From a virus, in the IMG/VR virus record IMGVR_UViG_3300022700_000278, positions 1 through 64,000 of that record: 64,000 nucleotides of DNA; one strand, written 5' to 3'. Each line of letters begins with the position of its first letter. The stretch's first letter is position 1. This document shows, one piece after another, positions 2,712 through 48,511 of this stretch. The notes under the pieces are model-generated. The model ran no database searches and was not told the origin of the DNA. It saw only the letters and a list, made by a program, of their open reading frames with translations. The translations under genes and the position numbers were made by a program.

Positions 2712-2772
2712 AAGAGCAAGATAACCGAGCCACGTTATATGAAGCGTGGCCCTTGATGACAAGGAGGGAGTT

Positions 2773-29698: not shown

Positions 29699-29743
29699 TT
29701 TCTGGTGCTTTAGGTTCGTGAGACTCTCCTCAAAGGAAAAAAC

Positions 29744-30703: not shown

Positions 30704-30717
30704 TTGGGACAAGGACG

Positions 30718-33059: not shown

Positions 33060-36000
33060 TTGCCCCTAAAGAACGACAACTCGTTTCTACTGTCTGGCTC
33101 ACAGCCACAAGACCCAACTGAATCTTCTGGAGCATTCGGGGTAGCTGGAGCAAGTCTTGCTGGCATTGGCCTTTCTGGTATGGTGCCGATTGGCCAAAAG
33201 AGGCTGTGGGACTATTATTTAAGCGGCATTAAGGCCGTAGAGACGGGGTTCCCTGGCGCTGTCTTAAGAACCTTTCGGGTATCAGAAACTCTTTCTCCTC
33301 TGGAGACATGGTCTAAGTTTGACCTGTCTCAAAAAATTATAGAAAGTAGGAGTCTGTACGGCCAGTATCTACGCCGGATGCTGGGCGAACAGACGTTGTC
33401 TGCCACGATCTCTCGGGGCACGGGAGTTTTTGGCGAGGTCGTAGACAAACAAGGAAAGACAATTGGTCTTGCCGCTAGCGTTGCGTCTGGCACGCAACGA
33501 GGCGAGACGATAGCTGACTATTACGCCAGGCTTGCCGGCGTTCCTGTTGACGAAGGCCTTTCTATTAGAGAAGGTGCGCTGAGATCAAGGTGGCAAGCAG
33601 AGGGTGCTGGCGTTCCCTATAAGAAGTGGGTAGACAAGCTTTCGTTCTCTGAGCGACAGCCTTCTATTCCTTTAATTGCTCCGTTTAGGAAAGAAGTCGA
33701 GTTTCTAGGAAAGAAGATTAGTCTTGGATCGTCTGCACAGCGAGCAGTTGCCAGAGCAGAAATCTTTCAGCGGTTTGTTCGGGCTAAAACAGCCACGACA
33801 GTAGGCCGACTCAATACGCTATTGCGCAAGCCTTTCGAGATGCCTGGCATCGGGAAGGCTTTGAAAAAAATACCGCTCATTAGTGGTATTGGGATGACAC
33901 CAGGCCCGGCTTCTTCAATGGTAGGAGGCTATGTCCGAAGGGGGATAGTTGCTGGCGGCGTCATGACCGCCTTGTCGTATTATGACTATCTCAGAAGCCA
34001 GGGAGGTCCTTCCTCTTTTGTCGCCGGTCCTGCTCTTGGCGGTGTTCTTGGCGGACTGTTGTCAAAAAAACATGGACGGCCAATTTCGGTAAAAGGAGCA
34101 ACTATTGGAGCGGCTGTCGGACTGGCGACGGCAATTTCTCCGCGTTTCCAAGAAGGTTTGTTCCATGGTGCTCTTTCACTTGTCGCAGATCTAAACCTTG
34201 CCAGGGCTGAAGTTTCCCAGAAACTTGGGTTGCAAAAAGCCGTTAGCCGCCAAGAAGAAATAACTCCTGGTCTATTGTCGGTTAAAACAGCAGCCGGATT
34301 TGCCGGTGTTGGTGCTCTTGGTGCCGGAATGGCTGGCTATGGAAAGCTTTTGGGCGTTGCAGCCAAAGAAAAGATGGCAACCAAAAGGCCATTTGAAGAG
34401 ATCTTTTCCCGTCTTAGAAGCGAATGGTATGGCGAAGGAGAAGAAATAGGTCGAGCAGGGGACTGGATTCAGCAAAAGATTGGTCGCCGACTAAAAGGTG
34501 TTCCGCTTGTTGGGAAGCGCCTCTCTAAAATAAAAAGCCCGATGGCGATGGGGGCCGTCGGGGGTGCTGCTCTCTGGTTAGTTGCCTCCACAGGCCTTCC
34601 TCTGTTGTCTGGAAACATAGGAGCTGCAATACCGGGAGCTAACCTGTTGGCGACAAAGGAAACTCCAGAAGAGTTGAGGCAGATATATTCTGGCGAGAAG
34701 GAGATTCCTGTAAGAAAAGGAAGGTTTTGGGAGATGGGTCGTTCCACCCCATACGAAGGTGGGCGTATCCAGTATTACAGAAAGCATGCTTTAGAGCGCC
34801 TTAGAGCTAGGGCATACCAGAAGGGTGTGTGGGGCGACGAAGAAGAAAAATGGGCCCACTCTCCCTTGCTGCATCCTTTCAAGGCTGTTTTTGGAAGTGA
34901 CGAGTGGAAGTATCACTATGAGATAAAACACCAATATGATCGGCCTGCTCCTTATTCTGGGACATACGGAGAGGATGTGCCCTTCATAGGTCCTCTAGTT
35001 GCTGCTACGGTAGGAAAACTATTGAAGCCGCGAAAGTATGTTCGTCCAGAAGAATGGATGGGAGAAAACGGGTACAGACATATACCTGGAGAAGAAGAGC
35101 CTGCGTATGAGCTTGGGGGTCTTCCACCAGGGGCCCCGGTTGCTCCCGAGGAAACTTCTCAGTTGCTTAATGAATTAATGTATAGGCGGCGAGAAGCGGT
35201 CGGTCTTGTTGGTTTTGCCGAGGGTGCTATTCAGGAAGCTATAACTGGGCGAGAAGAATACTTCCCCAACCTGACTACCATGGCCACGATGGGAGAAGAA
35301 ACTTCTTCTGAATATTGGTTGTGGGAGCACCTGAACCTGGGTGGTGCGCTTGCAACCTCTGAGGTTGTTAGGCGGTTTGTTCCTCATGAAAGAAGATATT
35401 TAGAAAAATACAATCCTTTGGCACGACAGGCTCCTTCTTGGATGCCAGAAGATTACTTCATAGACTTAAAGCGGGGCAATCCATTTGAAGAAATACCAGA
35501 AGCAGAGCTTCGTTTTCCTGGGGCGGGATATGCATCTTTGCATCCAGAAGTAGAGGGGTTGTCTCCCGAAGAATATCCGCTGGCTCATCGTCTTAAAATT
35601 CTTGGTGACGTCGCCTATTGGAGTCCCGAATATAGAAGCTTGGCGAAGGTTGCTCGCAAGGGACTGGGAGGTATGTCTCCAGAGCACCAAAGAATGGTTG
35701 ACCAAACAATAGAGCAGGTAAAAGAGAAAAAGCGGAGAAGAACATTCGACGAGTATCGTTTTCGCGACGAAGAGCTATCGGAAATGATGCTCACGATAAG
35801 GGGTGTCTTGTCTCCAAGAGAAGTGGTCACAAAAGAGCTTGGTCCTATGAAAGTATCGTTGCGTGGAGTTGGGGCAACTAGAGGGAATATGGACGAAGCA
35901 TTGGCTGCTGCAGAAGAAGCTCTTCTTGGCAAGAAAGTTTCTGTCATGACGCCTTCTTTGGAAGGTCGGCGCTATGATATCGTCTCGTCCGGTCCAAGAA

Positions 36001-37256
36001 TGAAGGGCGTCGCCATGTTAGACGACATCCCGTATGGCAGGTGGATGGCCGAGCAGGGATACACAGAAGAAAAGCCACTAGAGGGTGAGTTTGAGCAGCT
36101 CCAATATGATACGACGGCTAGAGTAGCCGGAGGGATTTGGGAGAACTTATCCCGTGCCATAGAGACTCCTTTTGAGGCTCTTACTCCGTTTTCCCCCGCA
36201 GCCAAGCTTATTAGAAAAAGATCTGCAATAGAAGAGTATGCCAAAACAGAAGCTATAAGCACCGAAGCTTCTTTCTGGAACAAGCCCTTGGAAAATTTTA
36301 TTTTCCCTGCCATGGAAGAGATGGAATATGCTCTTGGTGACGAAGAGATTCCTCAGCCAGTTCAAGAGAAAAGAAGAGCTGAAGAATACTTCGACATGTT
36401 GCAGTGGGAAAAGCAAAGAAGGCTTGCTGCGACAGCAGAAACGCCAGGAGATAAAGGCCGGGCATTAGCGCTGCAACGCAATACCATGTTTGGGGCCGAC
36501 CCATTTGGAAGTCCAGTTGGTGTTATGAGGTCGTTGCCCAGGACTTCAAGAGACTTCTTTCAGGCATTTTCAGAAGCAGAGACGCTTCGAGATAGGCAAA
36601 AAATTATGTCTCTTGTGTCAGAACAAGAAAGACGTGTTTATCTTGCTCAGTGGATGCGACAGCAACAGGTTGCTTTAGAGGCAAAGAAAATGGCCAGGTT
36701 GATGACCCGTCAGGACGCGATGAACCTTAATCGTATTTTGATGGCGCGTCGTTCCGAAGGATATGGATACACCTCCTCTGATCTGGAAGAGTGGGAGGCG
36801 GAAAGAAGCAGAGGTATTGCTTTCGACGATTGGCTTAGAGACAAGAAGGCCAAAGAATATTGGGACACACACTCCTTGCCTGGGGCCGATTGGATCGGCT
36901 GGCACCCCTCGGTCGACTTAGAAGATACACAAGCCCGATATCTTGAGCAGGAGGGGTTTGATCATCATGACTTTGACATCTGGGGAGATAAGATGCGCTC
37001 TCTTGCTAGAAAACCATATATAGATCAGGCCGCAGTCTCTTCTCTGAATCCCTTTGCCAATTCGCCTAGGGATTCTGTTGCTCAGGCCGCGCTGACCAAA
37101 TACAACATGAAGGCTCTGCAAAGTTCTTTGGGTGCTGATAATTCTAGGATAGAAATATCGAATATTGAAACGCCAGGAGTAAGCAGATACAATATAGATA
37201 TAAAAGATGAAAGATCTAGTTTGATAGAGGATCTAATGAAGGAGCTTGGTCTGTAG
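33060..37256 (+). CDS. Tape-measure-like protein with hydrophobic segments and a degenerate SNase-like domain
   Basis: First large gene after the chaperones; several Gly/Ala hydrophobic helices. Confidence 0.6.
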   Translation: MPLKNDNSFLLSGSQPQDPTESSGAFGVAGASLAGIGLSGMVPIGQKRLWDYYLSGIKAVETGFPGAVLRTFRVSETLSPLETWSKFDLSQKIIESRSLYGQYLRRMLGEQTLSATISRGTGVFGEVVDKQGKTIGLAASVASGTQRGETIADYYARLAGVPVDEGLSIREGALRSRWQAEGAGVPYKKWVDKLSFSERQPSIPLIAPFRKEVEFLGKKISLGSSAQRAVARAEIFQRFVRAKTATTVGRLNTLLRKPFEMPGIGKALKKIPLISGIGMTPGPASSMVGGYVRRGIVAGGVMTALSYYDYLRSQGGPSSFVAGPALGGVLGGLLSKKHGRPISVKGATIGAAVGLATAISPRFQEGLFHGALSLVADLNLARAEVSQKLGLQKAVSRQEEITPGLLSVKTAAGFAGVGALGAGMAGYGKLLGVAAKEKMATKRPFEEIFSRLRSEWYGEGEEIGRAGDWIQQKIGRRLKGVPLVGKRLSKIKSPMAMGAVGGAALWLVASTGLPLLSGNIGAAIPGANLLATKETPEELRQIYSGEKEIPVRKGRFWEMGRSTPYEGGRIQYYRKHALERLRARAYQKGVWGDEEEKWAHSPLLHPFKAVFGSDEWKYHYEIKHQYDRPAPYSGTYGEDVPFIGPLVAATVGKLLKPRKYVRPEEWMGENGYRHIPGEEEPAYELGGLPPGAPVAPEETSQLLNELMYRRREAVGLVGFAEGAIQEAITGREEYFPNLTTMATMGEETSSEYWLWEHLNLGGALATSEVVRRFVPHERRYLEKYNPLARQAPSWMPEDYFIDLKRGNPFEEIPEAELRFPGAGYASLHPEVEGLSPEEYPLAHRLKILGDVAYWSPEYRSLAKVARKGLGGMSPEHQRMVDQTIEQVKEKKRRRTFDEYRFRDEELSEMMLTIRGVLSPREVVTKELGPMKVSLRGVGATRGNMDEALAAAEEALLGKKVSVMTPSLEGRRYDIVSSGPRMKGVAMLDDIPYGRWMAEQGYTEEKPLEGEFEQLQYDTTARVAGGIWENLSRAIETPFEALTPFSPAAKLIRKRSAIEEYAKTEAISTEASFWNKPLENFIFPAMEEMEYALGDEEIPQPVQEKRRAEEYFDMLQWEKQRRLAATAETPGDKGRALALQRNTMFGADPFGSPVGVMRSLPRTSRDFFQAFSEAETLRDRQKIMSLVSEQERRVYLAQWMRQQQVALEAKKMARLMTRQDAMNLNRILMARRSEGYGYTSSDLEEWEAERSRGIAFDDWLRDKKAKEYWDTHSLPGADWIGWHPSVDLEDTQARYLEQEGFDHHDFDIWGDKMRSLARKPYIDQAAVSSLNPFANSPRDSVAQAALTKYNMKALQSSLGADNSRIEISNIETPGVSRYNIDIKDERSSLIEDLMKELGL

Positions 37257-40200
37257 TGCCTGATTATCGAGAAGAACGTTCTCCGCTGTGGGGATTAGCA
37301 GCAACGGGTGCTTTTGCTGGTGGGACTGCATATGGTTTGCAGGGTCGTTGGCAAGAGCTTTTTCGAGCGACTCAGTCGGCGAATACGAGACAATATTCGG
37401 CGGCCGAGCAAGCTGTCGGAGGCATGGCTCGTTTTGCAGAATCAGCCAACGCCACGGGCTTAGGTTTGTTAAGAGACTTCGCTGGGACAGAAGTAGCTGC
37501 AGCAGATGCGCCTGCGTTTAAAAGAGATGTCGCTATAAGCGCCTACGAGGCCATTCTGAAGGGCAAAGGACAGACTGGTCATGAGGAGGCCTATTCTGTT
37601 TTTCAAGAGGTTGTGGGGGCATCTGATGCGACACAGGCTGCTTCTGTTGCCCAAAGAGAACTAGACCGGTTGGGTGGGGATGTTGGTCTTTTCTCGAAAA
37701 GAGTAGAACAGTTTTTCCCCGGCGGGGCCTATGAGGGACTCGCCAAAGACATGGGAGAATTCTCTGGGATGGTTCTCTCTGATCCCAAGACAGAGATCCC
37801 GTTTACGGCGCTATCTACACAGAGTCGCTCCGTAGCAGAAGAGACACAGGCTCGCTTGGGGAGAATTTTTAAGGATAGGTCGGTTGCCTGGTCTCCAAGC
37901 TATCACAAGGTTGGGGAGCAAGAAATCTTAAGTGCGACCATTAGCACGCCAGGTCGCCCCACTCACTTAAACATTCCTCTTAGATCCGATGTGGGAGAGA
38001 CATATGCTGGTCCCGGGTTTAGAAACAAATATATAACCAGAGGAGCTTGGGAGATAACCCCACAGGGGGTTCGGCAAAAAAGCATTTCTCAGCTTTATCT
38101 GGATACGCTAGAGACAGAAGCCTCTATGGCAGAAAGTTCTGTCGGGCTTGCTCGAGCTGTTGAAAGAGCCAAGACTACGGTTCAAGAAAAAACAATGGTC
38201 TGGAGTCCGTCCGAAGAGATGCTTACAACAGGGGACCGGTTGCGTCAAAGAATCACAGCGTCCCAGAGAGCATATGTCGGCAAAGACATTTCACCTGCGA
38301 CAATTCGAGCAGGCATAGAGGCAGGGGGGTTGCCGCTTGGATCTCCTGCTCAAGTTGCCAAGGGAGTGTTGACGGACGTGGACTGGCAGAAAGAGTTGCT
38401 TGGTCCGCTGGGAGAGTTGATGCCCGCTCACAGAAGACCCTTGCAGTTTATTCGGGAGGGATGGCAGCTTTCTGATATAGCAAGAACAGAGCAAGGGGGG
38501 ACTTATGCTCGTGAGGGTGCCCTGGGAGAGCTGGCTTCCAGGTTTTCTCCTGCGGTAGCACCTGGGTTCGAGGAAGCAACAAGGGGGCATGTGGCGCCTG
38601 CGGCATCAACGTTTTATTTGAAGCCTGGTGCTACGGACTACTCGAAACAGTTAGCAGAAGAAATGGGAATCATGTCTCGAGAGGCTGCTGCTTTGCAAAA
38701 GTGGGAGAGGGTCTCTTCTCAAAAGCTACGGGTCGCCGAAGGAATGCCTTTGACAAACGAAATCAAGCAGCATATGGAGAAAGAAACCTTAGAGCTGGGG
38801 AAGCCCTATCTTTTTGACCAGCCAGTTCCTCTTGAGCCTGGCCAGGGCCTTGGCATCGGAGACAAGGGGCAAATAGCAAAAATTCGCCGCAAACGAGGGG
38901 TACAGCAGTTTCTTATGGGATATGAGGTATTGGATGCCGGAAGAATAAAGGCCAATATCAAAGAGGTCGTCCACATGAGAGATGGCGATGTGCAAAAATT
39001 CTTCTCTGCTGGATCCGACATTAAGCACACCATCAAGAGAGCGGATCCACAGGAGTTTTTGAGAACGCTGGGAGTAAGCACAGCCCCCGTCGATGTTGTG
39101 GTGCCCGGAGAGAGATTGACAAAAACCCCATATGCGTTGTTTTCTCAGCAGATAAGTGGAATGCAAGAATTTGCCGCCAAAAGAATAGATGCTGTGAGGG
39201 CGAAGGGAATCATCTCGGACATTTCTGGACTAGAAGAGTACGTGAAAGATCCTCTTCGTTCCCTTGGCTTAACAGAGGATTTCCTTGGCAGCAAGAAGAT
39301 TCAAAAGACGGGACAGCTTTCCAGTGCGATTCAAAACAGAATTGTTTTAGGTGCCGAGCGCCTTGGTCTAATGAGAAGCAAGATTGCTCCAGAAATTTTT
39401 GGGATGATGGATCCGGCAGACGTCGACCGAATGATAGATGTGGCAGAGGACCTCTCTGAAGAAGTTGTTTCTGTTGAGACCAAAGAAAAGCTTATGCGGG
39501 CAATAGGTGCTTCCAAGGGCGTCCGTGGTTCTTCTCATATGTTTCTTGGAGATCTCATAGCAGAGGGCGGAACAGGGAACATGGCCAAGTGGGAGCCTTC
39601 TTTGTTCCATTGGTTGACGAAAGGTGGCCCCCCTGGTCTTGGTGCCAAATGGGCAACTGACATAGAGAGAAGGCTTGTTGGCCAGGAGGGTGCCGAAGAT
39701 ACAGTAAGAGAAATGACTAGGATGCAAAAAAGCCTCTTGGGAGAGGGGAGCTTTGTAGAAAGAGTTAAGGCTGGTTTCTTAGACGAGGAAGACTTTTTGT
39801 CTTTGGGAAAAGACGACCTGGTGAAGGCTCAGGGAAGATGGGTCAATCTTGGACAGAGCGTTGACGAGTTTGGCGGCAAAAGAATTTTTATTCCTGGGCA
39901 CGAGGCTGCCCCGCAACTGGGGTCTCTCAAAACAGATACGGGAGAGCTTGTCCGGTCTGAATTTGAAAATGCTTTGTTTGACTTGCAGTCCTCTTTAAAA
40001 GATCAGTCGGAGAACGCAGAAAGAAAGATATTAGAATCTGCAAGAAACTTGAGAGCAATTGGACACGCACAGTGGAGTGGCGCTGTTACAATGAGAGAGC
40101 GTGCATATGGTACCAGAATGCTCGCTGCTCAACGTTTGCAGATGATAGACGAGGCCGAGGATCTTGCTGATAACGTGGCAAAGTATACTCACAAAATAAG

Positions 40201-41737
40201 CTCTCGTACTGCGACAGACATGTTTGAAGAAATGCAGGCAGCAGCACCAGACGAAACAACCAGAGCCTTTCTTTCTGCTCAACAAGAGGCTTTTGAACAG
40301 GGAGAAAGAATTCCAGGGCTTGTCGGAAGATATCCTGCTGTGGGTCCTTATAGCGTTCAGCCAACATTCTTTCAAAAGGCCGACGACGCGTTAGACGAAG
40401 CAGTGTACTCTCCAGACATCGACGACGAAATCACAATTGCTGGCGAAGGAATTCGCGGAACAAGCAAAAAAGTCAGCGTTGGCCAAGGGGTCGGACAGAG
40501 ACTAGACTATGACCTTGACCGACAAATTATTTCTTTTCTGTCTGATCAAGAAACTTCTTCAAAGACGTCGCGTTATTTGTCGGGACAGCTTGCAGGAGAT
40601 TACGAAGAATTTCTTGGAAGGCACTATGGCCTACAGCAATTGTTTGAAGAAAACAAGCCAGCAGGTGTTGATGTTGCAAGAGGCATACAGGAAAGGCTTG
40701 ATAGTGGAGCAAAACACTATATTGGGCAAATGGGAATTGGCAAAACAAATGTTGCGTTAGAAAAATTTCGTCGGGCCTCTGCTTTGAGAGGCGCTGACTT
40801 CCAGGCAAAATACGAACCCCTGCTTTGGCATATGGAGGAAACGGCTACTATTATGGCAAAGCATGGTGGCGCTCACGCTGCAGAAGAGCTCTATTCTAAA
40901 TATGGACGAGCAACTGCAGCAATAGAGAGAGGAAGAGTAGATGAAGGCGCAAGGCTTCTGCAAGAAACCATCGAAGCGCTGGGCGGAAAGGAATCTGCTA
41001 GGCTAAGTGTGTCCTTTGCCAGAACGGGCAGAGAGGTTGCGTATGATTACGATCCTTCTTCGATGGCACAGGATCTGTCTAGTGCATACGCAGAAACACA
41101 CGATGAAATTCGGCCTGCCATGGACATTAGTCGACAAAGCAAACGGGCTGCCGTAAACCTTTCGGAAGAAGAGATTAAAAAACAAATCAGCTTGTTAGAA
41201 AGTCGAGTGCAGGTTGATGCAGCACAAGTGATTCGAGCACAAAGAACAATGGGATCAGCTAGCATAGGGGCGAGAACACAGAGAGCTGCGACTGTCGCAA
41301 GGAGTCGGTATAGGGCAATAGGCAATGTGTTAAAGAAGGGTAAGGGGCCAATGGCCTTGGGTGCTGCTGCGGCGGCTGGTATATTATTAGCATCACCACC
41401 TGTGTCTGGCACCATACCTGCCAATCCAAACATAGAGGGTGCTGCTGGTGGGAGAAATATTAATCCAGAAGATTCTATCCCACCGTCTGGGCCGGGCATG
41501 AGGCCTCCAAGGTCTGGAATGAGAGCCTCTCCAAAAGCTTACCTCCAGAAAGAAGGGTCTACGATGGCGAACATGAGAGCAACTTCTTCTGATTTTGGAG
41601 CGGAAAGGGTTTCGGAGACTCTAAGGCAAATGAGAGAATTGGAGTCAACAAGGATGCGCTCTAGAATAAAAATATCTGACAATCGAGAATCTCTAGATTC
41701 GAGAATGTTGGCAGACAAAATTTACCGGAGTATGTAA
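37256..41737 (+). CDS. Candidate single-chain two-barrel (double-psi) DNA-dependent RNA polymerase, probably virion-associated
   Basis: EEMGIMS (468), GDVQK..DIK (K581/K590), PVDVVVP (613), GRYP..SVQ (R1025), DYDLD (1084-1088). Confidence 0.7.
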   Translation: MPDYREERSPLWGLAATGAFAGGTAYGLQGRWQELFRATQSANTRQYSAAEQAVGGMARFAESANATGLGLLRDFAGTEVAAADAPAFKRDVAISAYEAILKGKGQTGHEEAYSVFQEVVGASDATQAASVAQRELDRLGGDVGLFSKRVEQFFPGGAYEGLAKDMGEFSGMVLSDPKTEIPFTALSTQSRSVAEETQARLGRIFKDRSVAWSPSYHKVGEQEILSATISTPGRPTHLNIPLRSDVGETYAGPGFRNKYITRGAWEITPQGVRQKSISQLYLDTLETEASMAESSVGLARAVERAKTTVQEKTMVWSPSEEMLTTGDRLRQRITASQRAYVGKDISPATIRAGIEAGGLPLGSPAQVAKGVLTDVDWQKELLGPLGELMPAHRRPLQFIREGWQLSDIARTEQGGTYAREGALGELASRFSPAVAPGFEEATRGHVAPAASTFYLKPGATDYSKQLAEEMGIMSREAAALQKWERVSSQKLRVAEGMPLTNEIKQHMEKETLELGKPYLFDQPVPLEPGQGLGIGDKGQIAKIRRKRGVQQFLMGYEVLDAGRIKANIKEVVHMRDGDVQKFFSAGSDIKHTIKRADPQEFLRTLGVSTAPVDVVVPGERLTKTPYALFSQQISGMQEFAAKRIDAVRAKGIISDISGLEEYVKDPLRSLGLTEDFLGSKKIQKTGQLSSAIQNRIVLGAERLGLMRSKIAPEIFGMMDPADVDRMIDVAEDLSEEVVSVETKEKLMRAIGASKGVRGSSHMFLGDLIAEGGTGNMAKWEPSLFHWLTKGGPPGLGAKWATDIERRLVGQEGAEDTVREMTRMQKSLLGEGSFVERVKAGFLDEEDFLSLGKDDLVKAQGRWVNLGQSVDEFGGKRIFIPGHEAAPQLGSLKTDTGELVRSEFENALFDLQSSLKDQSENAERKILESARNLRAIGHAQWSGAVTMRERAYGTRMLAAQRLQMIDEAEDLADNVAKYTHKISSRTATDMFEEMQAAAPDETTRAFLSAQQEAFEQGERIPGLVGRYPAVGPYSVQPTFFQKADDALDEAVYSPDIDDEITIAGEGIRGTSKKVSVGQGVGQRLDYDLDRQIISFLSDQETSSKTSRYLSGQLAGDYEEFLGRHYGLQQLFEENKPAGVDVARGIQERLDSGAKHYIGQMGIGKTNVALEKFRRASALRGADFQAKYEPLLWHMEETATIMAKHGGAHAAEELYSKYGRATAAIERGRVDEGARLLQETIEALGGKESARLSVSFARTGREVAYDYDPSSMAQDLSSAYAETHDEIRPAMDISRQSKRAAVNLSEEEIKKQISLLESRVQVDAAQVIRAQRTMGSASIGARTQRAATVARSRYRAIGNVLKKGKGPMALGAAAAAGILLASPPVSGTIPANPNIEGAAGGRNINPEDSIPPSGPGMRPPRSGMRASPKAYLQKEGSTMANMRATSSDFGAERVSETLRQMRELESTRMRSRIKISDNRESLDSRMLADKIYRSM

Positions 41738-42342
41738 TGCCTACAAAACAGCAAACACAATCTGGCGAAGGAAGTCAGAAAAAGCAAGTGAAGAAAACGC
41801 AAGAAAGCGTTGTTGTTGCTAGACAAAAGGATGTTAGAGAAGAGTTCTCTGACTTGCCGGCAGATGTTTTGGTTATAAATGATATTTTGTTTAGAGATGT
41901 TCCGATGACGGCTATTTCTATAGAGAACGAAGCAGACATAGCGGTGACAGAGACTCTTAGGACAGAGGCTCCTCATATTCAACCAAAAGGCCGAGACTCC
42001 GCAGTGGTTTCATTGCAGTTGATGTTTAGAGAGGGGCATGAGCAAACAGTAACATTGCGTAGGCTGATGGCAGAGCTACAACATAGTCCGTTTGTGTTTT
42101 TAGAAAACAATAAAGTGCGACAAACTCTTTTTGCTTCGCGCGCAGGCAAGACAGGCCCTGTTTTAGAAACGATGGCTTTTGTTGTGCATTTCGGCTCTCT
42201 TTCTATTAGCCAACAACTACCAGGCACGATTGTGTTGGATCTTCAGTTGTCCGAGTTTAACTACAAGCCATTTTCTGAGCATTTTTGGTATAGCAGTACA
42301 ATAGCGGGCATCCCTACAGAGATGCGAGGAGCGAGATCTTAA
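41737..42342 (+). CDS. Hypothetical tail/baseplate protein (tube-like fold possible)
   Basis: TAATG coupling; beta-rich; precedes the hub gene. Confidence 0.65.
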   Translation: MPTKQQTQSGEGSQKKQVKKTQESVVVARQKDVREEFSDLPADVLVINDILFRDVPMTAISIENEADIAVTETLRTEAPHIQPKGRDSAVVSLQLMFREGHEQTVTLRRLMAELQHSPFVFLENNKVRQTLFASRAGKTGPVLETMAFVVHFGSLSISQQLPGTIVLDLQLSEFNYKPFSEHFWYSSTIAGIPTEMRGARS

Positions 42343-42343
42343 T

Positions 42344-45300
42344 ATGCCCCGTCGAAACATTTCCGTTTGGTCTGATTATTCTCGAGAGAAGTTTTTAACA
42401 GACACTTCTGCTGCAGAGGCGTCTCTGTCTTCTAAGAGTAAGTATGGAGCAGAAGATACTCCTACGGTTTTCCCTGCTAACTCTGGTGCGTGGATGTATT
42501 ATGCCAACCACCTAGAAGGGAAGATGCCAGTACTTTCTGAGCGAAACACAGAGTATGTTGAGTTTGAATATAGAGAGTATGACATAAAGATTCCTCCAGA
42601 AGAAGCAAGAGCAGACTTGTCTTCTCTTGAAAAGTTCTTTGGGAAAACACCATCGTGGTGGGGAGACAAGACAAAGGATCCTCTCGCACAAGAGGTTCCT
42701 AACATCCCAAGCGGAACAAGTGCTCAGAAATATGCCAGCGATGTTTTGCAGCAAGGTGGCGGCAAGATGGCCGCTCGTTTTACTGCAAACAATGGCGCTA
42801 GCTATGTGATGGGACCAAGAGATCGCTTGTGGTTGGCGCGGATATTGTATGGGGAGCTTCGGATTCACAACAACAAGACCTTTAGCCATCTTGGCGGAGA
42901 TGCTTCCGATAGCGAAGTCGTTATGCATGCTTGGATGGTAATGAATCTTTTGATGACGAAATACCATGGCGGATCTTTGCGAAAAGCTGCGAAGGCATAT
43001 TCCGAAGCGCTACAAGGCAAGACTGGCAACTTAAAAGACTATGCCCAATATGGTTCTTGGCAGAAAGCAAAGAAGACATACGAAAACAACTATGGAAAGA
43101 ACACAAATAAGTTCAAGAAGGCTAAAAGAAGATTTTTCCAGGCCAGAAATCAATATATGGCAAATGTCGCCATTTGGCCAGGAGCAGAAGAGTTTTATTC
43201 TACGGGCGCCCACGTCAGTCCGACCGGAAAGCCTATCTTGATTCCAACCAAGTTGGCTGATTTTGTTAATAGGTTTGCGGCCGGGGAAATTCCAAAACCA
43301 AGCGGAATTCCTGGCAAAATATTTGATATTTCCGCAAACAGAAATAGTATTGCTTGGGGTTCGGGCAAAACCTATGGCATCAAAGTAGAAGGAGTGAAGT
43401 GGCAAAATGGCACTTCTGCTCCAGGATTCCCCTACACCGACCTTTCTCCTCCTGGGTTTGCTTTTAGAAAAGAAGCCAAGGGTTTTTGGGGTGGCGTAGC
43501 TTTCCGGCCCAACAAACATTCTGGAAAGGGTACGTCAAACAACCTGTATGTGCGCCGCAGGTCTGTTTCGGAAGATCTTTTGCGGAGTATTTCTGCAGAC
43601 AAGATTGACACGGGGATATACGCAGACGGTGTGCCCGTTGAAGAGGGTGGTATTGAGCGCCAGGCGTTGTTTGGTCAGTCTATGAGCGACCTGGCTGGCT
43701 ATCAGGGTCAGTCTGTAGATAGTTCTTTGCTGCAAGAAACGGAGAGACAAGAGAATAGCGATCAACAAAAGACAACAGAGTTGCCCAGAGAAGAATCAGA
43801 GGGGACCCTTATAAAACAGGCTCAAGATGCAAACAAGAAGCAACAAAATAGAGCTGACTGGATAAACGATCTTGCCAGGAACGGGTGGAGATACGAAGGC
43901 ATCACAGACAACAGAGAAACTTTCAAAAATATATTTTCGCAAGCCAAAAGAATTCGCATCGGCGGAAGAGATAGCGGTGCAGTCTCAATGCAGAATGTTG
44001 TTCCCGTTGCAGCAAGCGTTCAGTTTGGACATAGGCTTGCTGAGCAAAAATTACTGGGGCAGAAAACGTCTACATTCCAGTTTTTAGGCGCCGGAAACAA
44101 GTCTGGAATTATTGTTTTGTCTGCTGCTGGAGAAGCCGGCAGGCGAGCGCTTCAAGCCGTCAAGAGAATGTATGCCACTCTTAGCTATAACGCTAGACAG
44201 ATGGGCGATTTCAGAGAGGCATCTGCTGCGAAAATTAATATTGTTGCTCCAGATGGAGCCAAGAACAACATCTTTGCTTTGTTGGATATAAACAAAATCA
44301 GTATTTCTAATGTAACAGACGAGGCGACTGTACAAGACGGCGTAGACATATATAAAATGACCATAGAGTTTTTGTCTCGTGACTTCATAGAGCCCACGTT
44401 TAAACCCAAGACCGTTTTTTCGGAAGAGTTAAAACGTCAAATTGTTTCTCGTATGCTGAAGGATCTCCAGGTTCAGGAGGTAAGTTCGTTCGACAAGGTG
44501 GCTTCTGAATCTCCTGTTTCTACCACACTAGCAAACGTTGCATTTTCTCTCAGAAAAAACTTTGAGATTGGGCTGGAGTTTATATCCAACATTCCTGCCT
44601 CTCTTGCAAGTTCTTCCGTAGCAGACGAAAACAGAAGACGCTATGATCGAATGTCCAAATACGCAGATAACATCGACTTGTTCTTAAGAGCAAGCTTGCA
44701 ACATGTAATTTTCCCGTCCAAAGATATTGCTTATGTGCCGGGATACAGCAATGCAGCTCCTCTCGTAGCTGGGGTTTACGCCCCCAGTAGCTGGGGAGGA
44801 TCGGTAGGCGGAGCCGTGTCTGGTTTTGCTGAAGGTGCCCTTTCAGGACAGAGGAAAGACATTGCGTACATGTTTAAGGCGAGAGAGTCGTCTGGGAAGC
44901 CCCAGTGGTATGTTGACCTGCTGGCCAGGTTAGCTGCTGACATAAAGGGTATTTCTTCTAGGTTCCCCTTGTTAAACACCCCCGTCGGGGTTCGGCCAAT
45001 AGAAACTATTTCGATCAGGAATGCTCTTGATCAGAAATGGGAAGGAGAGAAGACCTGGGGGGATCGCTTACGAATATTTGGCAATCAGCTAGGAGGGGTG
45101 GGGCAAAAGCTGGTTTCTCTTGTTGGTGGAGAGGGGGTTTCTGTTGAAGGAGAGAGGGTGAGGGGGTTTTATGTTGCAGACTCTCCTGACGAAGCTTCCA
45201 GGATTGGTGCACAGCAGTTTGCTTCGCTGACAGCAATTTTCAATCAAGTTGCTGTGCAGGCCCTACAAAGAGCAAATGACGGAGAGGGCTTCGCAAATGT

Positions 45301-48300
45301 TTTTGGAAAAGAAGTTGCCGATCAGGTACTTGAGTTGTCTGTTGCTGAATATGGCTCTTGTTATCCTGATCTAGACTTGCCGAACATAGCAAACACCAAA
45401 ATAAAAACAATGCCAAGCTTTTTCATGTACGAGGACGCTCTTGAAAGTCCTGGTTTGGCGCAAATCAACAATGATGCCGGCGTGCTAGATCAGCTTGTGT
45501 CTAGACACCTAGAAAATTCTGCGAAAAGCGTTTCGAGGTTTATTGGAAAGGGAGGCGCCAGCAAATTATTTGCAACTAAAAACGCAGACTATTTGCAACA
45601 GGCAAGAAAACAATATGATGAAATAGATAAAAAGGAAAAAGCATATAACGGAGAGCATGGTGCTTTTGCGGCTGATGGCAATGGGGCAGAAAATCCAGTA
45701 TCTGAATCTGCGAAAGTAAAAGATGCGATAGGATACAGGAGCGACAAGTATGCTGGCAATCCGACTGGTCCTGGCGAGACAACGAAACAACAACTTGCTA
45801 AGGTGTTCGGGAAAGAAGCGTCGAACGCTCTTTTGCGATTGCTGAAAGACGACAAGGCAACTTCGGTAAAAGATGCTTTCTTTACGGCAGTGGTGTCGTC
45901 TTCTTACTTAAACAAATTTGTGGATGGGCAAATAACTGGAATCGACCCGGACTTTGAAGACGAAAATGAGCTTTTTGCTAGGGCAAGAGATTTCTATTTT
46001 GCCGATGCGGAAGGCAAGCTTCCAGACAAGATATATGTAGGACCAGATGGCACACAGGCTAAAATGGATGCCGCTTGGGATGGAGATATGGGTGGCGGTT
46101 CTCCTCTGGGTGGCGACGCCAAGTCTGATCAAACCTCGCCTCAAGGGGGCTTGCCTTCTGCTTCTGCCCCAGATGGTGCTGCAGTAGGCGGAGTAAACTT
46201 TGGGGAACAACAGTCTTCTAGCGAATGGGAGGAAGATTATTTTGAGCCTTCTGCAGTAGAGCCGCCGCAAACAATTGATTATGAAGCAGCGGAAAACATT
46301 GCTGAATACAACAATCTTTTGTCGAAAATCCAAGCGACACAAGGAGCAGAGGCTCTTGGAAGATCGGTAGCAAGCGGCATTCGAGATCGTTTTAAGAGAG
46401 ACTTTAGTCTTGTCCGGGCCTTCCCCACCTTCAAGATTTTTTTTATTGACGAAGATAGCGACGAAGAGATTGGAGAGTTTCATGCTTTTGATGACTTCTA
46501 CAGCTATTCTGCCGTACAAGAAATTCGAATAACTCGGTCTAGGAAAATTGCGGCCGATCTGGCTGTGTTACGAATAACAGATGTCGCACACAAACTGACC
46601 AGGGGCAGGTTCTCTGATGTAGACTTGTCAACAGGTGACGTCAAAAACGAAGACTCGCTGGGATGGTGGGCAGAGACACAAAAAGAAAATCCATTTAACA
46701 ACAGGATTCTTCGAGAGGGGGTAAAGGTGCAGATCCGTTTAGGATATGCGCCAGAACCAGATCAGCTTGAAACTGTTTTCTTGGGGCAAATCACAGAGGT
46801 TGCTCCTTCGGAGGGAGGAAAAATACTTGAGATCGTCTGCCAAGGGTATGGGGCAGAGTTAGAGGCTGCGTCCATGAACGCCGCAGACAACGACGTAGTG
46901 TATTACTCTCCCCAGCACGCTCTTTGTGCCGCAATTCTACAGCCCTTTATTAAAAACTTTGGCCATTGGAGTTTTAATCAATTTTACAACCCTGCACAAA
47001 TCAGAAGAAAGTATCATGATTTTTGGGGATCTAATCTAGGAACAATCGATCAGCTTTTTGCGGCCTATCAGAGAACGCAAAGAGAGATGTTTTTCCACAT
47101 CCTTCGTTTGGTGAACTTCAGAAACGATCCACAGGATGATAATATTTTTGCTCCACCTCCATTTTTATACGAAGGCAGTGATCTGACGACTAGAATCTGG
47201 AACAACGCCAACGCTTATCACCCCTTTATGAATACTCCGTGGGAGGTTTTTAAAGAACACGAGCTTCGGTTCCCAGGGTATGCTGCGCTGCCGCTTCCTT
47301 ATGGACACGAGCCCAGAATGACTATGTTTTTTGGGATGCGCGGTCAACGATATTGGTCGAGCCCATGTTCTAAAGCACAGGCGTTCATAGCCAAGTATTG
47401 GACAGATTTGGTTCAGGCAGCGGGGGTGGGAAAGGATGGAGCTGAAAAATTAGCTTCAGATCCAAGAGCTAGGGCTGGGTTGCAGTATTTGAAACAAGCG
47501 AATCCGGGTCTATACAATGCGATAGCAAAAGAATTGTTTGGCCAGTCCAACTCAATTGGTCGATATATCGGAGAGGTGTCTGGTCGCTATCGTCCATTTA
47601 GGAACCACCACATATTTACTTCTGATCGCCACATCATAAAGAATGGCATTCGCACCAACGCAAGCAAAACGTTTAATGCAGTCCAGCTCTTTTATGCCGA
47701 TGACGAAGATCAATTAGACGTAGAAGAAATAGAAGAAGTTATAGAGTCGATGAAAGAAACATCGGAAGGAAAGGGCGGCGTGTATACCGCCAGACTAAGT
47801 GATAACATTCCAGACTGGCAGGTTCGAACATATGAAGACTCCTTTCCGTCTTGTGTGTCTTCTTATATGGCAAAACGATATGCTCACGGGCTGTTTTTAG
47901 AAGGCGTCAAACAAAGCTATGGAGGAGAGCTTGTCGTTACTGGTGAAGAGACCATAAAGCCATATGACGTGGTAATGATACAAGATCACATATCAGACAT
48001 GTATGGTCCTGTCGAGGTAGAGTCTGTCACGCATATATTCAACCAAGACACTGGGTTCGTGTCTGTCATTAACCCAAACATGCTTGTAGACTCAAATGAC
48101 ATGTGGTCAAAGGGCATAACAAGTGCGGTAACCCAGTCGCTTTCTCTTACAATGCTTGCGGCTCGTCAAAATGAAACTTCTAGCCAGCACAGGGCAGACG
48201 TTACCTCTACTGGGCTCTCTTTTGATAGCTTTTTGGCTAAGCTTGGGGCGTTTCATTTTGTTCATTGGGCCCAGACGGCAAGTCCTGTTATTTGTACTCC

Positions 48301-48511
48301 GCTTACGCATGGCGGCAAGCCGATGACAAGCATGTATACCGGAGAGAAATATTCGGCAATGTTCTCTGACATATGGGGAGAATGGCACCAGTGGTGGGAA
48401 GACTTCAACACGGGACTGGAAAAGGGAGCAATGTCTGAAGAATTCTTTAAGGCTGGCGACAGCTTGTTCCTTGATATAATGGACTTTTTCGGTCATGATG
48501 TAGGAATTTAA
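42344..48511 (+). CDS. Baseplate hub protein with N-terminal SleB-like cell-wall hydrolase motif
   Basis: LWLARILYGE..HAWMVMN; hub-like VQIRLGY..VFLGQITEV..EIVCQGYG and GELVVTG..IKPYD..EVESVTHIF. Confidence 0.7.
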   Translation: MPRRNISVWSDYSREKFLTDTSAAEASLSSKSKYGAEDTPTVFPANSGAWMYYANHLEGKMPVLSERNTEYVEFEYREYDIKIPPEEARADLSSLEKFFGKTPSWWGDKTKDPLAQEVPNIPSGTSAQKYASDVLQQGGGKMAARFTANNGASYVMGPRDRLWLARILYGELRIHNNKTFSHLGGDASDSEVVMHAWMVMNLLMTKYHGGSLRKAAKAYSEALQGKTGNLKDYAQYGSWQKAKKTYENNYGKNTNKFKKAKRRFFQARNQYMANVAIWPGAEEFYSTGAHVSPTGKPILIPTKLADFVNRFAAGEIPKPSGIPGKIFDISANRNSIAWGSGKTYGIKVEGVKWQNGTSAPGFPYTDLSPPGFAFRKEAKGFWGGVAFRPNKHSGKGTSNNLYVRRRSVSEDLLRSISADKIDTGIYADGVPVEEGGIERQALFGQSMSDLAGYQGQSVDSSLLQETERQENSDQQKTTELPREESEGTLIKQAQDANKKQQNRADWINDLARNGWRYEGITDNRETFKNIFSQAKRIRIGGRDSGAVSMQNVVPVAASVQFGHRLAEQKLLGQKTSTFQFLGAGNKSGIIVLSAAGEAGRRALQAVKRMYATLSYNARQMGDFREASAAKINIVAPDGAKNNIFALLDINKISISNVTDEATVQDGVDIYKMTIEFLSRDFIEPTFKPKTVFSEELKRQIVSRMLKDLQVQEVSSFDKVASESPVSTTLANVAFSLRKNFEIGLEFISNIPASLASSSVADENRRRYDRMSKYADNIDLFLRASLQHVIFPSKDIAYVPGYSNAAPLVAGVYAPSSWGGSVGGAVSGFAEGALSGQRKDIAYMFKARESSGKPQWYVDLLARLAADIKGISSRFPLLNTPVGVRPIETISIRNALDQKWEGEKTWGDRLRIFGNQLGGVGQKLVSLVGGEGVSVEGERVRGFYVADSPDEASRIGAQQFASLTAIFNQVAVQALQRANDGEGFANVFGKEVADQVLELSVAEYGSCYPDLDLPNIANTKIKTMPSFFMYEDALESPGLAQINNDAGVLDQLVSRHLENSAKSVSRFIGKGGASKLFATKNADYLQQARKQYDEIDKKEKAYNGEHGAFAADGNGAENPVSESAKVKDAIGYRSDKYAGNPTGPGETTKQQLAKVFGKEASNALLRLLKDDKATSVKDAFFTAVVSSSYLNKFVDGQITGIDPDFEDENELFARARDFYFADAEGKLPDKIYVGPDGTQAKMDAAWDGDMGGGSPLGGDAKSDQTSPQGGLPSASAPDGAAVGGVNFGEQQSSSEWEEDYFEPSAVEPPQTIDYEAAENIAEYNNLLSKIQATQGAEALGRSVASGIRDRFKRDFSLVRAFPTFKIFFIDEDSDEEIGEFHAFDDFYSYSAVQEIRITRSRKIAADLAVLRITDVAHKLTRGRFSDVDLSTGDVKNEDSLGWWAETQKENPFNNRILREGVKVQIRLGYAPEPDQLETVFLGQITEVAPSEGGKILEIVCQGYGAELEAASMNAADNDVVYYSPQHALCAAILQPFIKNFGHWSFNQFYNPAQIRRKYHDFWGSNLGTIDQLFAAYQRTQREMFFHILRLVNFRNDPQDDNIFAPPPFLYEGSDLTTRIWNNANAYHPFMNTPWEVFKEHELRFPGYAALPLPYGHEPRMTMFFGMRGQRYWSSPCSKAQAFIAKYWTDLVQAAGVGKDGAEKLASDPRARAGLQYLKQANPGLYNAIAKELFGQSNSIGRYIGEVSGRYRPFRNHHIFTSDRHIIKNGIRTNASKTFNAVQLFYADDEDQLDVEEIEEVIESMKETSEGKGGVYTARLSDNIPDWQVRTYEDSFPSCVSSYMAKRYAHGLFLEGVKQSYGGELVVTGEETIKPYDVVMIQDHISDMYGPVEVESVTHIFNQDTGFVSVINPNMLVDSNDMWSKGITSAVTQSLSLTMLAARQNETSSQHRADVTSTGLSFDSFLAKLGAFHFVHWAQTASPVICTPLTHGGKPMTSMYTGEKYSAMFSDIWGEWHQWWEDFNTGLEKGAMSEEFFKAGDSLFLDIMDFFGHDVGI

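What the first reader, a model, noticed from the sequence alone, without database searches (positions are those of the whole stretch)
37256..41737. Cryptic single-chain two-barrel RNA polymerase embedded in the tail module behind the tape measure
Seen: the 1493-aa ORF has, in order, LAEEMGIMSRE (aa 466-476), MRDGDVQKFFSAGSDIKHTI (K581, K590), TAPVDVVVPG (D613), GLVGRYPAVGPYSVQP (R1025), GQRLDYDLDRQIISF (D1084/D1086/D1088; nt 40505-40519) and later IGKTN. Established: cellular RNAP beta has FEDSILVSE, GDKMAGRHGNKGVI and GTPVDIVLNP; beta-prime has LLNRAPTLHRLGIQ and the Mg-binding NADFDGD. Single-chain two-barrel phage RNAPs exist (SPbeta YonO; crAss-like phi14:2 virion RNAP gp66, whose motif is the Gly-less DFDID). 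Inference: this is a highly diverged beta+beta-prime chain with all three catalytic Asp retained. Its location between the tape-measure-like gene and the hub, and its Gly/Ala hydrophobic ends, suggest it is packaged and injected to transcribe early genes. An automated annotation would probably call it a tape measure or hypothetical protein.
Basis: partly seen in the sequence, partly recalled or inferred. Interest (0 to 1): 0.95.

Follow-up and report, generated by a model that had tools for sequence, protein, structure and literature searches.

The report
Hidden RNA polymerase in myovirus tail module
A 1493-residue gene among the contractile-tail genes of an uncultured large phage very probably encodes a highly diverged one-chain relative of the cell's RNA polymerase with tape-measure-like ends. 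The phage probably carries it in the particle to start its own transcription, which so far has been shown only for a few unrelated phages.

Summary
No sequence library recognises the protein (Pfam, PHROGs, PDB sequences, 50,697 phage records). An exhaustive HMMER search found 102 cluster representatives, mostly collinear proteins of about 1450-1550 aa.

Across 50 diverse members (17-32% identical apart from three close relatives):
- R1025, P1027, D1084, D1086 and D1088 are invariant.
- K581 and K590 are kept in 49/50, mostly with the cellular K-x7-K spacing.

AlphaFold2, run without templates, gave confident models (pLDDT 82, pTM 0.80):
- Residues 309-776 match RNAP beta/Rpb2 subunits (Z 12-14, 300-350 residues).
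- Residues 941-1340, compared with 48,161 PDB chains, match RNAP largest subunits, QDE-1 and RDR2 first (Z 7.7-9.3). P74-26 gp62 (Z 7.1) and P23-45 gp96 (Z 5.8) come lower, among generic double-psi barrels.

The two-barrel reading is therefore supported. Virion delivery is inferred, not shown. The gene sits in the tape-measure slot of the 0305phi8-36/ME3 lineage. It has hydrophobic ends and a C-terminal motif shared with the upstream virion-protein homologue and, weakly, with 0305phi8-36 gp146, a virion protein by mass spectrometry.

It is a new variant of a known kind; the closest precedent is P23-45 gp96. This scan has noted the same kind of gene in at least 16 other genomes.

The parts
37256..41737 (+). 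Whole gene, 1493 aa (P0001): single-chain two-barrel RNA polymerase homologue with tape-measure-like termini
   Evidence: ORF and translation. Family of 102 representatives. AF2 models and fold searches.
37283..37339 (+). N-terminal Gly/Ala hydrophobic segment (aa 10-28)
   Evidence: Read from the sequence. Conserved in the close homologues. ME3_36 has a similar N-terminus.
38180..39583 (+). Beta/Rpb2-like module (aa 309-776), including the first barrel
   Evidence: VIA-align: model residues 16-483 against Rpb2, beta, ASFV and vaccinia second-largest subunits, Z 12-14, 300-350 aligned, rmsd 4.2-4.8. Foldseek top hits are all RNAPs.
38996..39025 (+). Lysine pair K581...K590 (family consensus KxF[GS]xxxK)
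   Evidence: 49/50 each. Column 586 is a gap in 46/50, so most members have K-x7-K, the spacing I recall for beta K1065/K1073 and Rpb2 K979/K987.
40109..40543 (+). Beta-prime/Rpb1-like double-psi beta-barrel (aa 952-1096)
   Evidence: C-half model residues 12-156 match RNAP largest subunits first, then generic DPBB domains such as CDC48-N and designed DPBBs. Foldseek hits are beta-prime/Rpb1 chains.
40328..40336 (+). Invariant R-x-P (R1025, P1027), counterpart of the beta-prime NRAPTLH motif
   Evidence: 50/50 conserved; family consensus RHPxxGPxSxQP. The equivalence to beta-prime rests on motif order and spacing, not on a residue-level superposition.
40505..40519 (+). DYDLD: candidate Mg-binding Asp triad D1084/D1086/D1088
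   Evidence: 50/50 conserved. Variants in the family include the canonical DFDGD and DYDGD. In the model it lies in the loop before the last barrel strand.
40682..40789 (+). Long helix aa 1143-1178, a candidate bridge helix (contains IGKTN)
   Evidence: DSSP helix 850-885 of model 1 and 210-238 of model 2. G1162 is kept in 40/50 and N/S1165 in 49/50. The assignment is inference.
40793..40927 (+). Helical hairpin aa 1180-1224 with invariant E1194 and K1202, and H1203 (44/50) at its tip: candidate trigger-loop equivalent
   Evidence: Helices 887-909 and 913-931 of model 1. Conservation. The likeness of the KHG tip to the trigger-loop FHIGG comes from memory and is inference.
41345..41401 (+). 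C-terminal Gly/Ala hydrophobic, membrane-like segment (aa 1364-1382)
   Evidence: Read from the sequence. G1369 is kept in 47/50. It resembles a segment of the upstream protein (BLASTP E 0.01) and aligns with the C-terminal module of 0305phi8-36 gp146.
41672..41725 (+). C-terminal motif [IV]-x-D-[DN]-R-x-x-L...L-x-[DN], about 20 aa from the end: candidate tail-docking signal
   Evidence: D1475 and R1477 are 49/50. The motif is present across the family and at the C-terminus of the upstream protein; these are the only two real ORFs in the genome that carry it. It matches ISDDRSTF of gp146.
33060..37256 (+). Upstream partner (P0006, 1398 aa): multi-Gly-zipper protein, homologue of ME3_35 (annotated as related to the 0305phi8-36 virion protein in the gp145 position)
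   Evidence: BLASTP against ME3_35, E 2e-46. Against the neighbour of the distant member P0088, E 7e-83. The pairing with the RNAP-like gene is conserved.
42344..48511 (+). Downstream giant baseplate hub (2055 aa); the 201-aa gene 41737-42342 lies between it and the RNAP-like gene
   Evidence: PHROG hits phrog_20474, phrog_8809 and phrog_196, the last labelled baseplate hub. Same position as the ME3_37 and gp147 hubs.

Best explanation
The gene encodes a single-chain two-barrel (double-psi beta-barrel) nucleotide polymerase, most likely a DNA-dependent RNA polymerase.

Shown by computation:
- A beta/Rpb2-like module (aa ~309-776) carries the conserved Lys pair.
- A beta-prime/Rpb1-like barrel (aa ~952-1096) carries the invariant R-x-P and DxDxD.

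Inferred:
- The enzyme core is flanked by a Gly/Ala hydrophobic N-terminus and a tape-measure-like C-terminal module: a membrane-like segment, a Pro/Gly linker and a conserved docking motif.
- The gene lies in the tape-measure slot of a contractile-tail operon.
- So the protein is probably built into the virion, in the tail or baseplate interior, together with the upstream Gly-zipper protein.
- It would be expelled on sheath contraction, anchor at the cell envelope and transcribe the first phage genes as the DNA enters. This is the model proposed for Thermus phage P23-45 gp96.
For: Family: 102 representatives at 50% clustering, 60 of them at E<=1e-10, mostly 1420-1570 aa and collinear.

Conservation over 50 diverse members: R1025, P1027, D1084, D1086, D1088, E1194 and K1202 are 50/50; K581 and K590 are 49/50, with K-x7-K in most members. 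DxDxD is present in nearly all members that span the region, including DFDGD and DYDGD.

Structure:
- AF2 without templates: pLDDT 82.0 and pTM 0.80 for aa 294-1493; pLDDT 82.5 and pTM 0.81 for aa 941-1340.
- Foldseek against the PDB: 116 hits at E<=1e-3, and the listed top ~50 are all RNAP large subunits.
- VIA-align for the beta-like half: Z 12-14 over 300-350 residues.
- Unbiased search of 48,161 chains with the C-half: the top 10 are RNAP largest subunits, QDE-1 and RDR2. P74-26 gp62 (Z 7.1) and P23-45 gp96 (Z 5.8) come lower, among generic DPBBs.

Context:
- The gene order is sheath, three tube paralogues, two small genes, P0006, this gene, a 201-aa gene, hub, baseplate.
- The same order occurs in a close relative and in a distant one with about 19% identity.
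- It also occurs in cultured phages ME3 and 0305phi8-36. There the slot is gp146, annotated 'hypothetical tape measure protein; identified as virion protein by mass spectrometry'.
- The C-terminal module aligns with the gp146 C-terminus (hhalign E 2e-4). The motif is shared with P0006.
- One-base overlaps suggest translational coupling with both neighbours.

Precedent: P23-45 gp96, PMC10770324.
Against: - No biochemical, proteomic or transcript data exist for this protein or any family member.
- The fold evidence rests on predicted models. Z for the beta-prime-like half is moderate (7.7-9.3).
- I could not measure whether the Lys pair and the Asp triad face one another.
- Sequence profiles do not link the family significantly to any known RNAP.
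- The Asn of NADFDGD that helps select rNTPs has no conserved counterpart, so the substrate is not settled.
- A folded ~130-kDa core cannot sit inside a tail tube, so the route of packaging is unexplained.
- 0305phi8-36 gp146, the only virion-verified slot-mate, has no DxDxD.
- Sigma-70-like promoters flank the divergent region at 2430-2711, so the host polymerase may suffice for some early genes.
- The record is only 61% complete.
Confidence: 0.7

Rival explanations
1. It is an active two-barrel polymerase in the virion, but its main job is not gene expression. It could act as a membrane-anchored motor that pulls the long genome into the cell by transcribing it. It could also act as a primase or DNA polymerase, as archaeal PolD is also a two-barrel enzyme.
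For: The hydrophobic ends and the tape-measure slot place it at the DNA entry site. There is no conserved counterpart of the rNTP-selecting Asn. Sigma-70-like promoters suggest the host RNAP can start early transcription. The P23-45 authors themselves propose that transcription is coupled to DNA translocation.
Against: The best structural matches are transcribing RNAPs, QDE-1 and RDR2; PolD is not in the lists shown. The genome already encodes a PolIII alpha subunit and a primase-helicase. Pulling DNA and expressing genes are not mutually exclusive.
Confidence: 0.15
2. It is a structural tape-measure or ejection protein that has kept a polymerase-derived fold but is catalytically dead.
For: It lies in the slot of the gene annotated as tape measure in 0305phi8-36, and that protein lacks DxDxD. 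Its length (1493 aa) is similar to the upstream giant (1398 aa). No activity data exist.
Against: Dead enzymes lose their catalytic residues. Here the Asp triad, R-x-P, the Lys pair, E1194 and K1202 are invariant or nearly so in sequences only 17-25% identical. The model is globular alpha/beta, not an extended helical rod.
Confidence: 0.08
3. It is a non-virion RNA polymerase that is made late and merely happens to be encoded inside the tail operon. It would be used for late or next-round transcription without being packaged.
For: Gene position alone does not prove packaging. Folded RNAPs do not fit in tail tubes.
Against: The gene overlaps both tail-operon neighbours by one base, which suggests translational coupling. 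The position is conserved across very distant relatives. It has hydrophobic termini and a C-terminal motif shared with the homologue of a virion protein, and that motif aligns with virion protein gp146.
Confidence: 0.07

Closest known systems
Thermus phage P23-45 gp96 (also P74-26, G20c, TSP4): virion two-barrel RNAP fused to the tape measure protein (Chaban et al. 2024, PMC10770324)
   Same: Both are single-chain two-barrel polymerases with DxDxD, encoded in the tail tape-measure position and joined to membrane-like segments. Both are undetectable by ordinary sequence searches. The C-half model aligns to gp96 610-1077, which includes its DFDGD at 779-783 (Z 5.8, 202 residues).
   Different: The host virus is contractile-tailed, not a siphovirus. 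The protein has 1493 aa rather than 5002, and no metallopeptidase or long tape-measure body was found. There is no significant sequence or profile similarity. Structurally it is nearer to cellular, NCLDV and jumbo-phage subunits than to gp96. A separate Gly-zipper giant is encoded upstream.
Cellular and large-virus multisubunit RNAP beta/Rpb2 and beta-prime/Rpb1 (including vaccinia, ASFV, phiKZ and AR9 nvRNAP)
   Same: These are the best structural matches for both halves. They share K-x7-K, R-x-P followed about 55 residues later by DxDxD, and long helices after the second barrel.
   Different: Both halves are in one chain of about 1050 residues. Pfam RNAP domains are not detected. Many lineage-specific domains of the cellular enzymes appear to be absent; this was not examined in detail.
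crAss-like phage phi14:2 gp66 virion RNAP, and QDE-1/RDR eukaryotic RNAi polymerases
   Same: They are single-chain two-barrel enzymes. gp66 is virion-packaged and has a Gly-less DFDxD. QDE-1 (Z 8.0) and RDR2 (Z 7.7) are among the top ten matches of the C-half. crAss giant proteins appear weakly in BFVD (E ~1e-3).
   Different: There is no sequence similarity, and the PF05183 RdRP model does not hit. gp66 itself is not among the listed PDB matches. The crAss-like virus type and the gene neighbourhood differ.
Acinetobacter phage vB_AbaM_ME3 gene ME3_36 (1603 aa, 'hypothetical protein') and Bacillus phage 0305phi8-36 gp146 ('hypothetical tape measure protein')
   Same: They occupy the same slot between the gp145-like virion protein and the hub. 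ME3_36 has KFFSVGSK at 632 and DHDQD at 1217. It gives a weak profile match to the beta-like barrel (hhalign prob 62%, E 7e-5). A predicted ME3 protein structure is a top BFVD match (E 2.9e-10); I did not verify that this BFVD entry is ME3_36. The gp146 C-terminus matches the family's C-terminal module.
   Different: Neither is annotated or described as a polymerase. gp146 lacks DxDxD. A six-frame profile search of ME3 and of Microcystis phage LMM01 found nothing.

Membership tests
Two-barrel (double-psi beta-barrel) RNA polymerase superfamily | A beta-prime-like DPBB carrying a DxDxD metal-binding loop | tested here: met
   D1084/D1086/D1088 are 50/50 conserved. C-half model residues 12-156 match RNAP largest-subunit barrels and generic DPBBs. 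This rests on a predicted structure.
Two-barrel (double-psi beta-barrel) RNA polymerase superfamily | A beta-like DPBB supplying two basic residues | tested here: met
   K581 and K590 are 49/50, with K-x7-K in most members. The region lies inside the stretch that aligns to Rpb2/beta at Z 12-14.
Two-barrel (double-psi beta-barrel) RNA polymerase superfamily | The two barrels face each other to form one active site | not testable with these tools
A pTM of 0.80 for the 1200-residue model only says that the domain arrangement is predicted with confidence.
Two-barrel (double-psi beta-barrel) RNA polymerase superfamily | Bridge helix and trigger-loop elements after the second barrel | tested here: inconclusive
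   A 36-residue helix at 1143-1178 and a helical hairpin at 1180-1224, with invariant E1194 and K1202 and with H1203 at the tip. Alignments to Rpb1, QDE-1 and others extend through this part, but no residue-level mapping was obtained.
Two-barrel (double-psi beta-barrel) RNA polymerase superfamily | Template-dependent RNA synthesis | not testable with these tools
   Needs biochemistry.
P23-45 gp96-type tape-measure-fused virion RNAP | The polymerase and the tape-measure body (membrane and metallopeptidase domains) are in one polypeptide of the TMP gene | tested here: inconclusive
   The gene is in the TMP slot by synteny. It has hydrophobic segments and a C-terminal module like gp146. No peptidase or long helical body was found.
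P23-45 gp96-type tape-measure-fused virion RNAP | Specific sequence or structural kinship with gp96 and gp64 | tested here: inconclusive
   hhalign against the gp64 and gp96 single sequences is not significant. VIA Z is 5.8 for gp96 and 7.1 for P74-26 gp62, below the cellular subunits.
P23-45 gp96-type tape-measure-fused virion RNAP | Presence in virions | not testable with these tools
   Only indirect evidence: the slot-mate gp146 of 0305phi8-36 is annotated as a virion protein by mass spectrometry.
YonO / eukaryotic RdRP family (Pfam PF05183) | A match to the RdRP profile | tested here: not met
   No Pfam hit at E<=0.1 for P0001. PF05183 finds nothing in the 115-kb record.
Canonical tail tape measure protein | A mostly extended, helical, length-determining body | tested here: not met
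   Residues 294-1360 are predicted as a compact alpha/beta multidomain fold with pTM 0.80. There are no TMP Pfam or PHROG hits. Only the termini are TMP-like.

The most novel reading that the evidence does not exclude
In a whole, widespread lineage of large contractile-tailed phages (relatives of 0305phi8-36 and ME3), the tape-measure slot has been taken over by a membrane-anchored RNA polymerase. It would travel through the tail in a non-native state and refold at the inner membrane beside the Gly-zipper partner. It would then both start phage transcription and help draw the genome of about 190 kb into the cell. That would make these myoviruses independent of host RNAP from the first second of infection.
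Probability: 0.3. Interest if true: 0.85.

Novelty: new variant of a known kind. Interest (0 to 1): 0.7.

Why it matters
Virion-delivered two-barrel RNA polymerases are known from only a few systems: phiKZ-like jumbo phages, crAss-like gp66 and Thermus P23-45 gp96.

This gene stands for a large, wholly unannotated family. It has 102 clusters at 50% identity, on contigs of up to 165 kb, and sits in the tail operon of contractile-tailed phages. If the enzyme is active and injected, then:
- Host-independent early transcription is far commoner among large myoviruses than annotation suggests.
- The link between tape-measure genes and polymerases is not a Thermus oddity.
- Very diverged, minimal RNAPs become available for studying how the two-barrel active site evolved.

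A cultured relative, Acinetobacter phage ME3 (gene ME3_36), makes the idea directly testable.

Tried and rejected
Searches that found nothing or nothing significant:
- Pfam and PHROGs on P0001 and both giant neighbours: no hits for P0001.
- Profiles A1 and A3 against PDB sequences: only spurious hits.
- tblastn of P0001 and of P0059 against 50,697 phage records: no match.
- hhalign of the family profile against P23-45 gp64 and gp96: not significant, although the top local hit placed DxDxD on the gp96 DFDGD.
- Six-frame profile search of ME3 and LMM01: nothing.
- ESM Atlas: only scores below 0.8, uninformative.
- Search for a second paralogue or an RdRP-like gene in the 115-kb record: none. The record is 61% complete, so this says little.

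Absences from result lists, which show nothing:
- phi14:2 gp66 and PolD did not appear in the lists returned.

Tools that failed or were limited:
- The search for related loci could not use the diverse alignment and found no locus for P0016.
- The first AF2 submission was too large.

Ideas rejected:
- That DxDxD alone is informative. It occurs in seven large ORFs of this record.
- That D613 is a conserved active-site residue.

Full report
**Observation**

The ORF at 37256-41737 (+) is intact and 1493 aa long. It starts at a GTG preceded by GAAGGAG. It overlaps its upstream and downstream neighbours by one base each (TAGTG, TAATG), which suggests translational coupling.

A DxDxD by itself means little. 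Seven ORFs of 300 aa or more in this 115-kb record contain one. The test therefore had to be conservation and fold.

**Setting**

The window is part of a 114,882-bp IMG/VR virus record that CheckV estimates as 61% complete. All genes near the ORF run on the + strand in a classical late operon:
- terminase and capsid;
- tail sheath 27107-29011 (phrog_16991, E 4e-67) and three tube-like paralogues;
- two small genes;
- a 1398-aa giant (P0006), then the 1493-aa target, then a 201-aa gene;
- a 2055-aa hub;
- gp25-like and J-like baseplate genes.

Elsewhere the record encodes PolIII alpha, a primase-helicase and a ribonucleotide reductase. It has no recognised RNAP.

**Sequence searches**

Pfam, PHROGs, PDB sequences and 50,697 phage genomes give nothing for the target. 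The word-indexed protein search found only four close relatives. In those relatives almost everything is conserved, so they cannot discriminate between residues.

The exhaustive HMMER search over 1.84 billion representatives found 102 proteins at E<=1e-3, 60 of them at E<=1e-10. Most are 1420-1570 aa and collinear with the query. The ten members I looked up come only from metagenome assemblies, on contigs of up to 165 kb. None has a functional name; the only label is 'hypothetical protein'.

**Conservation**

I aligned 50 diverse full-length members. Apart from three close relatives they are 17-32% identical to the query, and mean column identity is 21%.
- Invariant columns: G533, G538, P880, R1025, P1027, D1084, D1086, D1088, E1194 and K1202.
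- Kept in 49/50: K581, K590, Q631, G716, G952, M989, D1475 and R1477.
- Nearly every member that spans the region has exactly one DxDxD at the homologous place, and a few carry a second one elsewhere. Variants include the canonical DFDGD and DYDGD.
- In 46/50 sequences the lysines are seven residues apart. From memory, that is the spacing in bacterial beta (K1065/K1073) and Rpb2 (K979/K987).
- The consensus around R1025 is RHPxxGPxSxQP. It lies about 55 residues before the Asp triad, which is the order of the beta-prime motifs NRAPTLH and NADFDGD.

**Fold**

AlphaFold2, run without templates on the family alignment, gave confident models.
- For aa 294-1493: pLDDT 82.0 and pTM 0.80. Only the C-terminal ~130 residues are disordered.
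- The model is not a helical rod. It has two beta-rich cores, at aa 449-595 and 1019-1094, and long helices after the second one.

Foldseek against the PDB returned 116 hits at E<=1e-3. All of the listed top ~50 are large subunits of multisubunit RNAPs, of both beta/Rpb2 and beta-prime type. VIA-align placed model residues 16-483 (aa 309-776) on Rpb2, beta, ASFV and vaccinia second-largest subunits. Z was 12-14, with 300-350 residues aligned at 4.2-4.8 Å.

One domain filled that list, so I folded aa 941-1340 alone (pLDDT 82.5, pTM 0.81). I compared this model with all 48,161 representative PDB chains without a Foldseek prefilter.
- The first ten matches are RNAP largest subunits plus QDE-1 and RDR2:
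  - Sulfolobus Rpo1, Z 9.3, rmsd 1.9 Å over 107 residues;
  - Pol I, Z 9.3;
  - Pol II, Z 9.0;
  - Pol IV, Z 8.9;
  - vaccinia, Z 8.8;
  - QDE-1, Z 8.0;
  - RDR2, Z 7.7.
- Lower down come P74-26 gp62 (Z 7.1) and P23-45 gp96 (Z 5.8), mixed with generic double-psi barrels such as CDC48-N and designed DPBBs.
- Foldseek on the same model lists only beta-prime/Rpb1-type chains.

The Asp triad lies in the loop before the last barrel strand. After the barrel come a 36-residue helix (aa 1143-1178) and a helical hairpin (aa 1180-1224) whose tip carries the invariant K1202 and H1203. I read these as bridge-helix and trigger-loop equivalents, but that is inference. I could not measure the distance from the Lys pair to the Asp triad, because coordinates are not exposed.

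**Delivery**

Three lines of evidence point to a virion, tail-associated protein.

1. *The slot.* The nearest cultured relatives by sheath are Acinetobacter phage ME3 and Bacillus phage 0305phi8-36.
   - Both have the same order: sheath, tube paralogues, chaperones, a virion structural giant (ME3_35 / gp145), a second giant (ME3_36 / gp146), then the hub.
   - P0006 is a clear homologue of ME3_35 (E 2e-46).
   - gp146 is annotated 'hypothetical tape measure protein; identified as virion protein by mass spectrometry'.
   - Hardies et al. assigned gp146 as tape measure mainly from tail length. They noted that only its last 60 residues align with relatives (PMC2147016).
2. *The ends.*
   - The target has a Gly/Ala hydrophobic N-terminus.
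   - It has a membrane-like segment at aa 1364-1382.
   - It has a C-terminal motif, [IV]xD[DN]RxxL...L, about 20 residues from the end. The motif is kept across the whole family (D1475 and R1477 in 49/50).
   - The motif recurs at the C-terminus of P0006. These are the only two real ORFs in the record that carry it.
   - The family's C-terminal module aligns with the gp146 C-terminus, including ISDDRSTF (hhalign prob 45%, E 2e-4). This match is weak.
3. *The pairing.* P0006-like and RNAP-like genes are adjacent in a close relative and in a distant one with about 19% identity.

ME3_36 itself has KFFSVGSK at 632 and DHDQD at 1217. It gives a weak profile match to the beta-like barrel (prob 62%, E 7e-5). 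In BFVD an ME3 protein structure is one of the three best matches to my model (E 2.9e-10). An entry named 'minor tail protein' of an uncultured siphovirus is another. I did not verify that the ME3 entry in BFVD is ME3_36.

**Against delivery, or unresolved**

- A folded core of this size cannot sit in a tube lumen.
- gp146 has no DxDxD.
- Sigma-70-like promoters on both strands at 2430-2711 suggest that the host polymerase can start some transcription.
- No conserved counterpart of the rNTP-selecting Asn was seen.

**Comparison with what is known**

The closest precedent is P23-45 gp96. It is a two-barrel RNAP fused to the tape measure, shown to be active and to transcribe pre-early genes, possibly while the DNA enters (PMC10770324).

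The present family differs in several ways:
- the virus type is contractile-tailed;
- the protein is smaller and lacks a peptidase and a long TMP body;
- it has no detectable sequence kinship to gp96;
- structurally it is nearer to cellular-type subunits.

I found no paper describing it. Iyer et al. list only an RdRP-like (YonO-like) enzyme in 0305phi8-36, under accession ABS83659.1. Hardies et al. describe such a gene as orf99 in the non-structural arm. I could not check the 23-family alignment set of Chaban et al., so prior inclusion under another name cannot be excluded.

Earlier notes of this scan report the same kind of gene in at least 16 other genomes. One of them named ME3 as a cultured look-alike, which I confirmed independently.

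**Verdict**

- Homology to two-barrel RNAPs: about 0.9.
- An active RNA polymerase: about 0.75.
- Packaged and injected for early transcription: about 0.55.
- Class: new variant of a known kind.

Noticed in passing
window 33060-37256 (+): This 1398-aa protein has at least six Gly/Ala-rich hydrophobic segments in its first ~550 aa and a conserved C-terminal half. It is homologous to ME3_35, which the ME3 record describes as related to the 0305phi8-36 virion protein in the gp145 position. It is always encoded just upstream of the RNAP-like gene and shares that gene's C-terminal D-x-R-x-S-L motif. Its function is unknown; a membrane pore or partner for the polymerase is possible.
   Followed up: partly
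window 2420-2720: A divergent AT-rich intergenic region holds three tandem 30-nt repeats (2426-2532), each carrying a sigma-70-like promoter that points left (TTCACA-18-TATATT). An 11/12 match (TTGACA-17-TATATT) points right at 2683-2711. TTTATAGG-type repeats lie at 2550-2648.
   Followed up: partly
window 832-887 and 1296-1351: A 56-nt element is repeated at 96% identity and contains a tRNA T-arm-like GGAATCGAACC. I did not examine it.
   Followed up: no
window 1-355: At least 12 tandem copies of an 18-nt unit (six codons) lie at the very start of the window, inside an open-ended reading frame.
   Followed up: no
window 4609-8991 (+): A 1460-aa protein combines a PolB-type exonuclease domain (aa 174-296) with a staphylococcal-nuclease domain (aa 717-835). 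It lies upstream of the terminase.
   Followed up: no
window 29033-31566 (+): Three consecutive paralogues all hit phrog_9206, which is labelled 'major head protein'. They sit where ME3 and 0305phi8-36 have the tail tube and tube paralogues, so the PHROG label is probably misleading here.
   Followed up: partly
L012 28143-32954 (Acinetobacter phage vB_AbaM_ME3, gene ME3_36): This cultured-phage 'hypothetical protein' of 1603 aa sits in the same slot. It has KFFSVGSK at 632, REP at 1174 and DHDQD at 1217, so it is a candidate unrecognised polymerase in an isolate that can be tested at the bench.
   Followed up: partly
L013 32157-39770 (Bacillus phage 0305phi8-36 gp146): The annotated tape measure of this phage shares only the C-terminal ~140-residue module (a hydrophobic segment plus ISDDRSTF) with the RNAP-like family, and it has no DxDxD. 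The slot therefore seems to keep its ends while its body is exchanged.
   Followed up: partly
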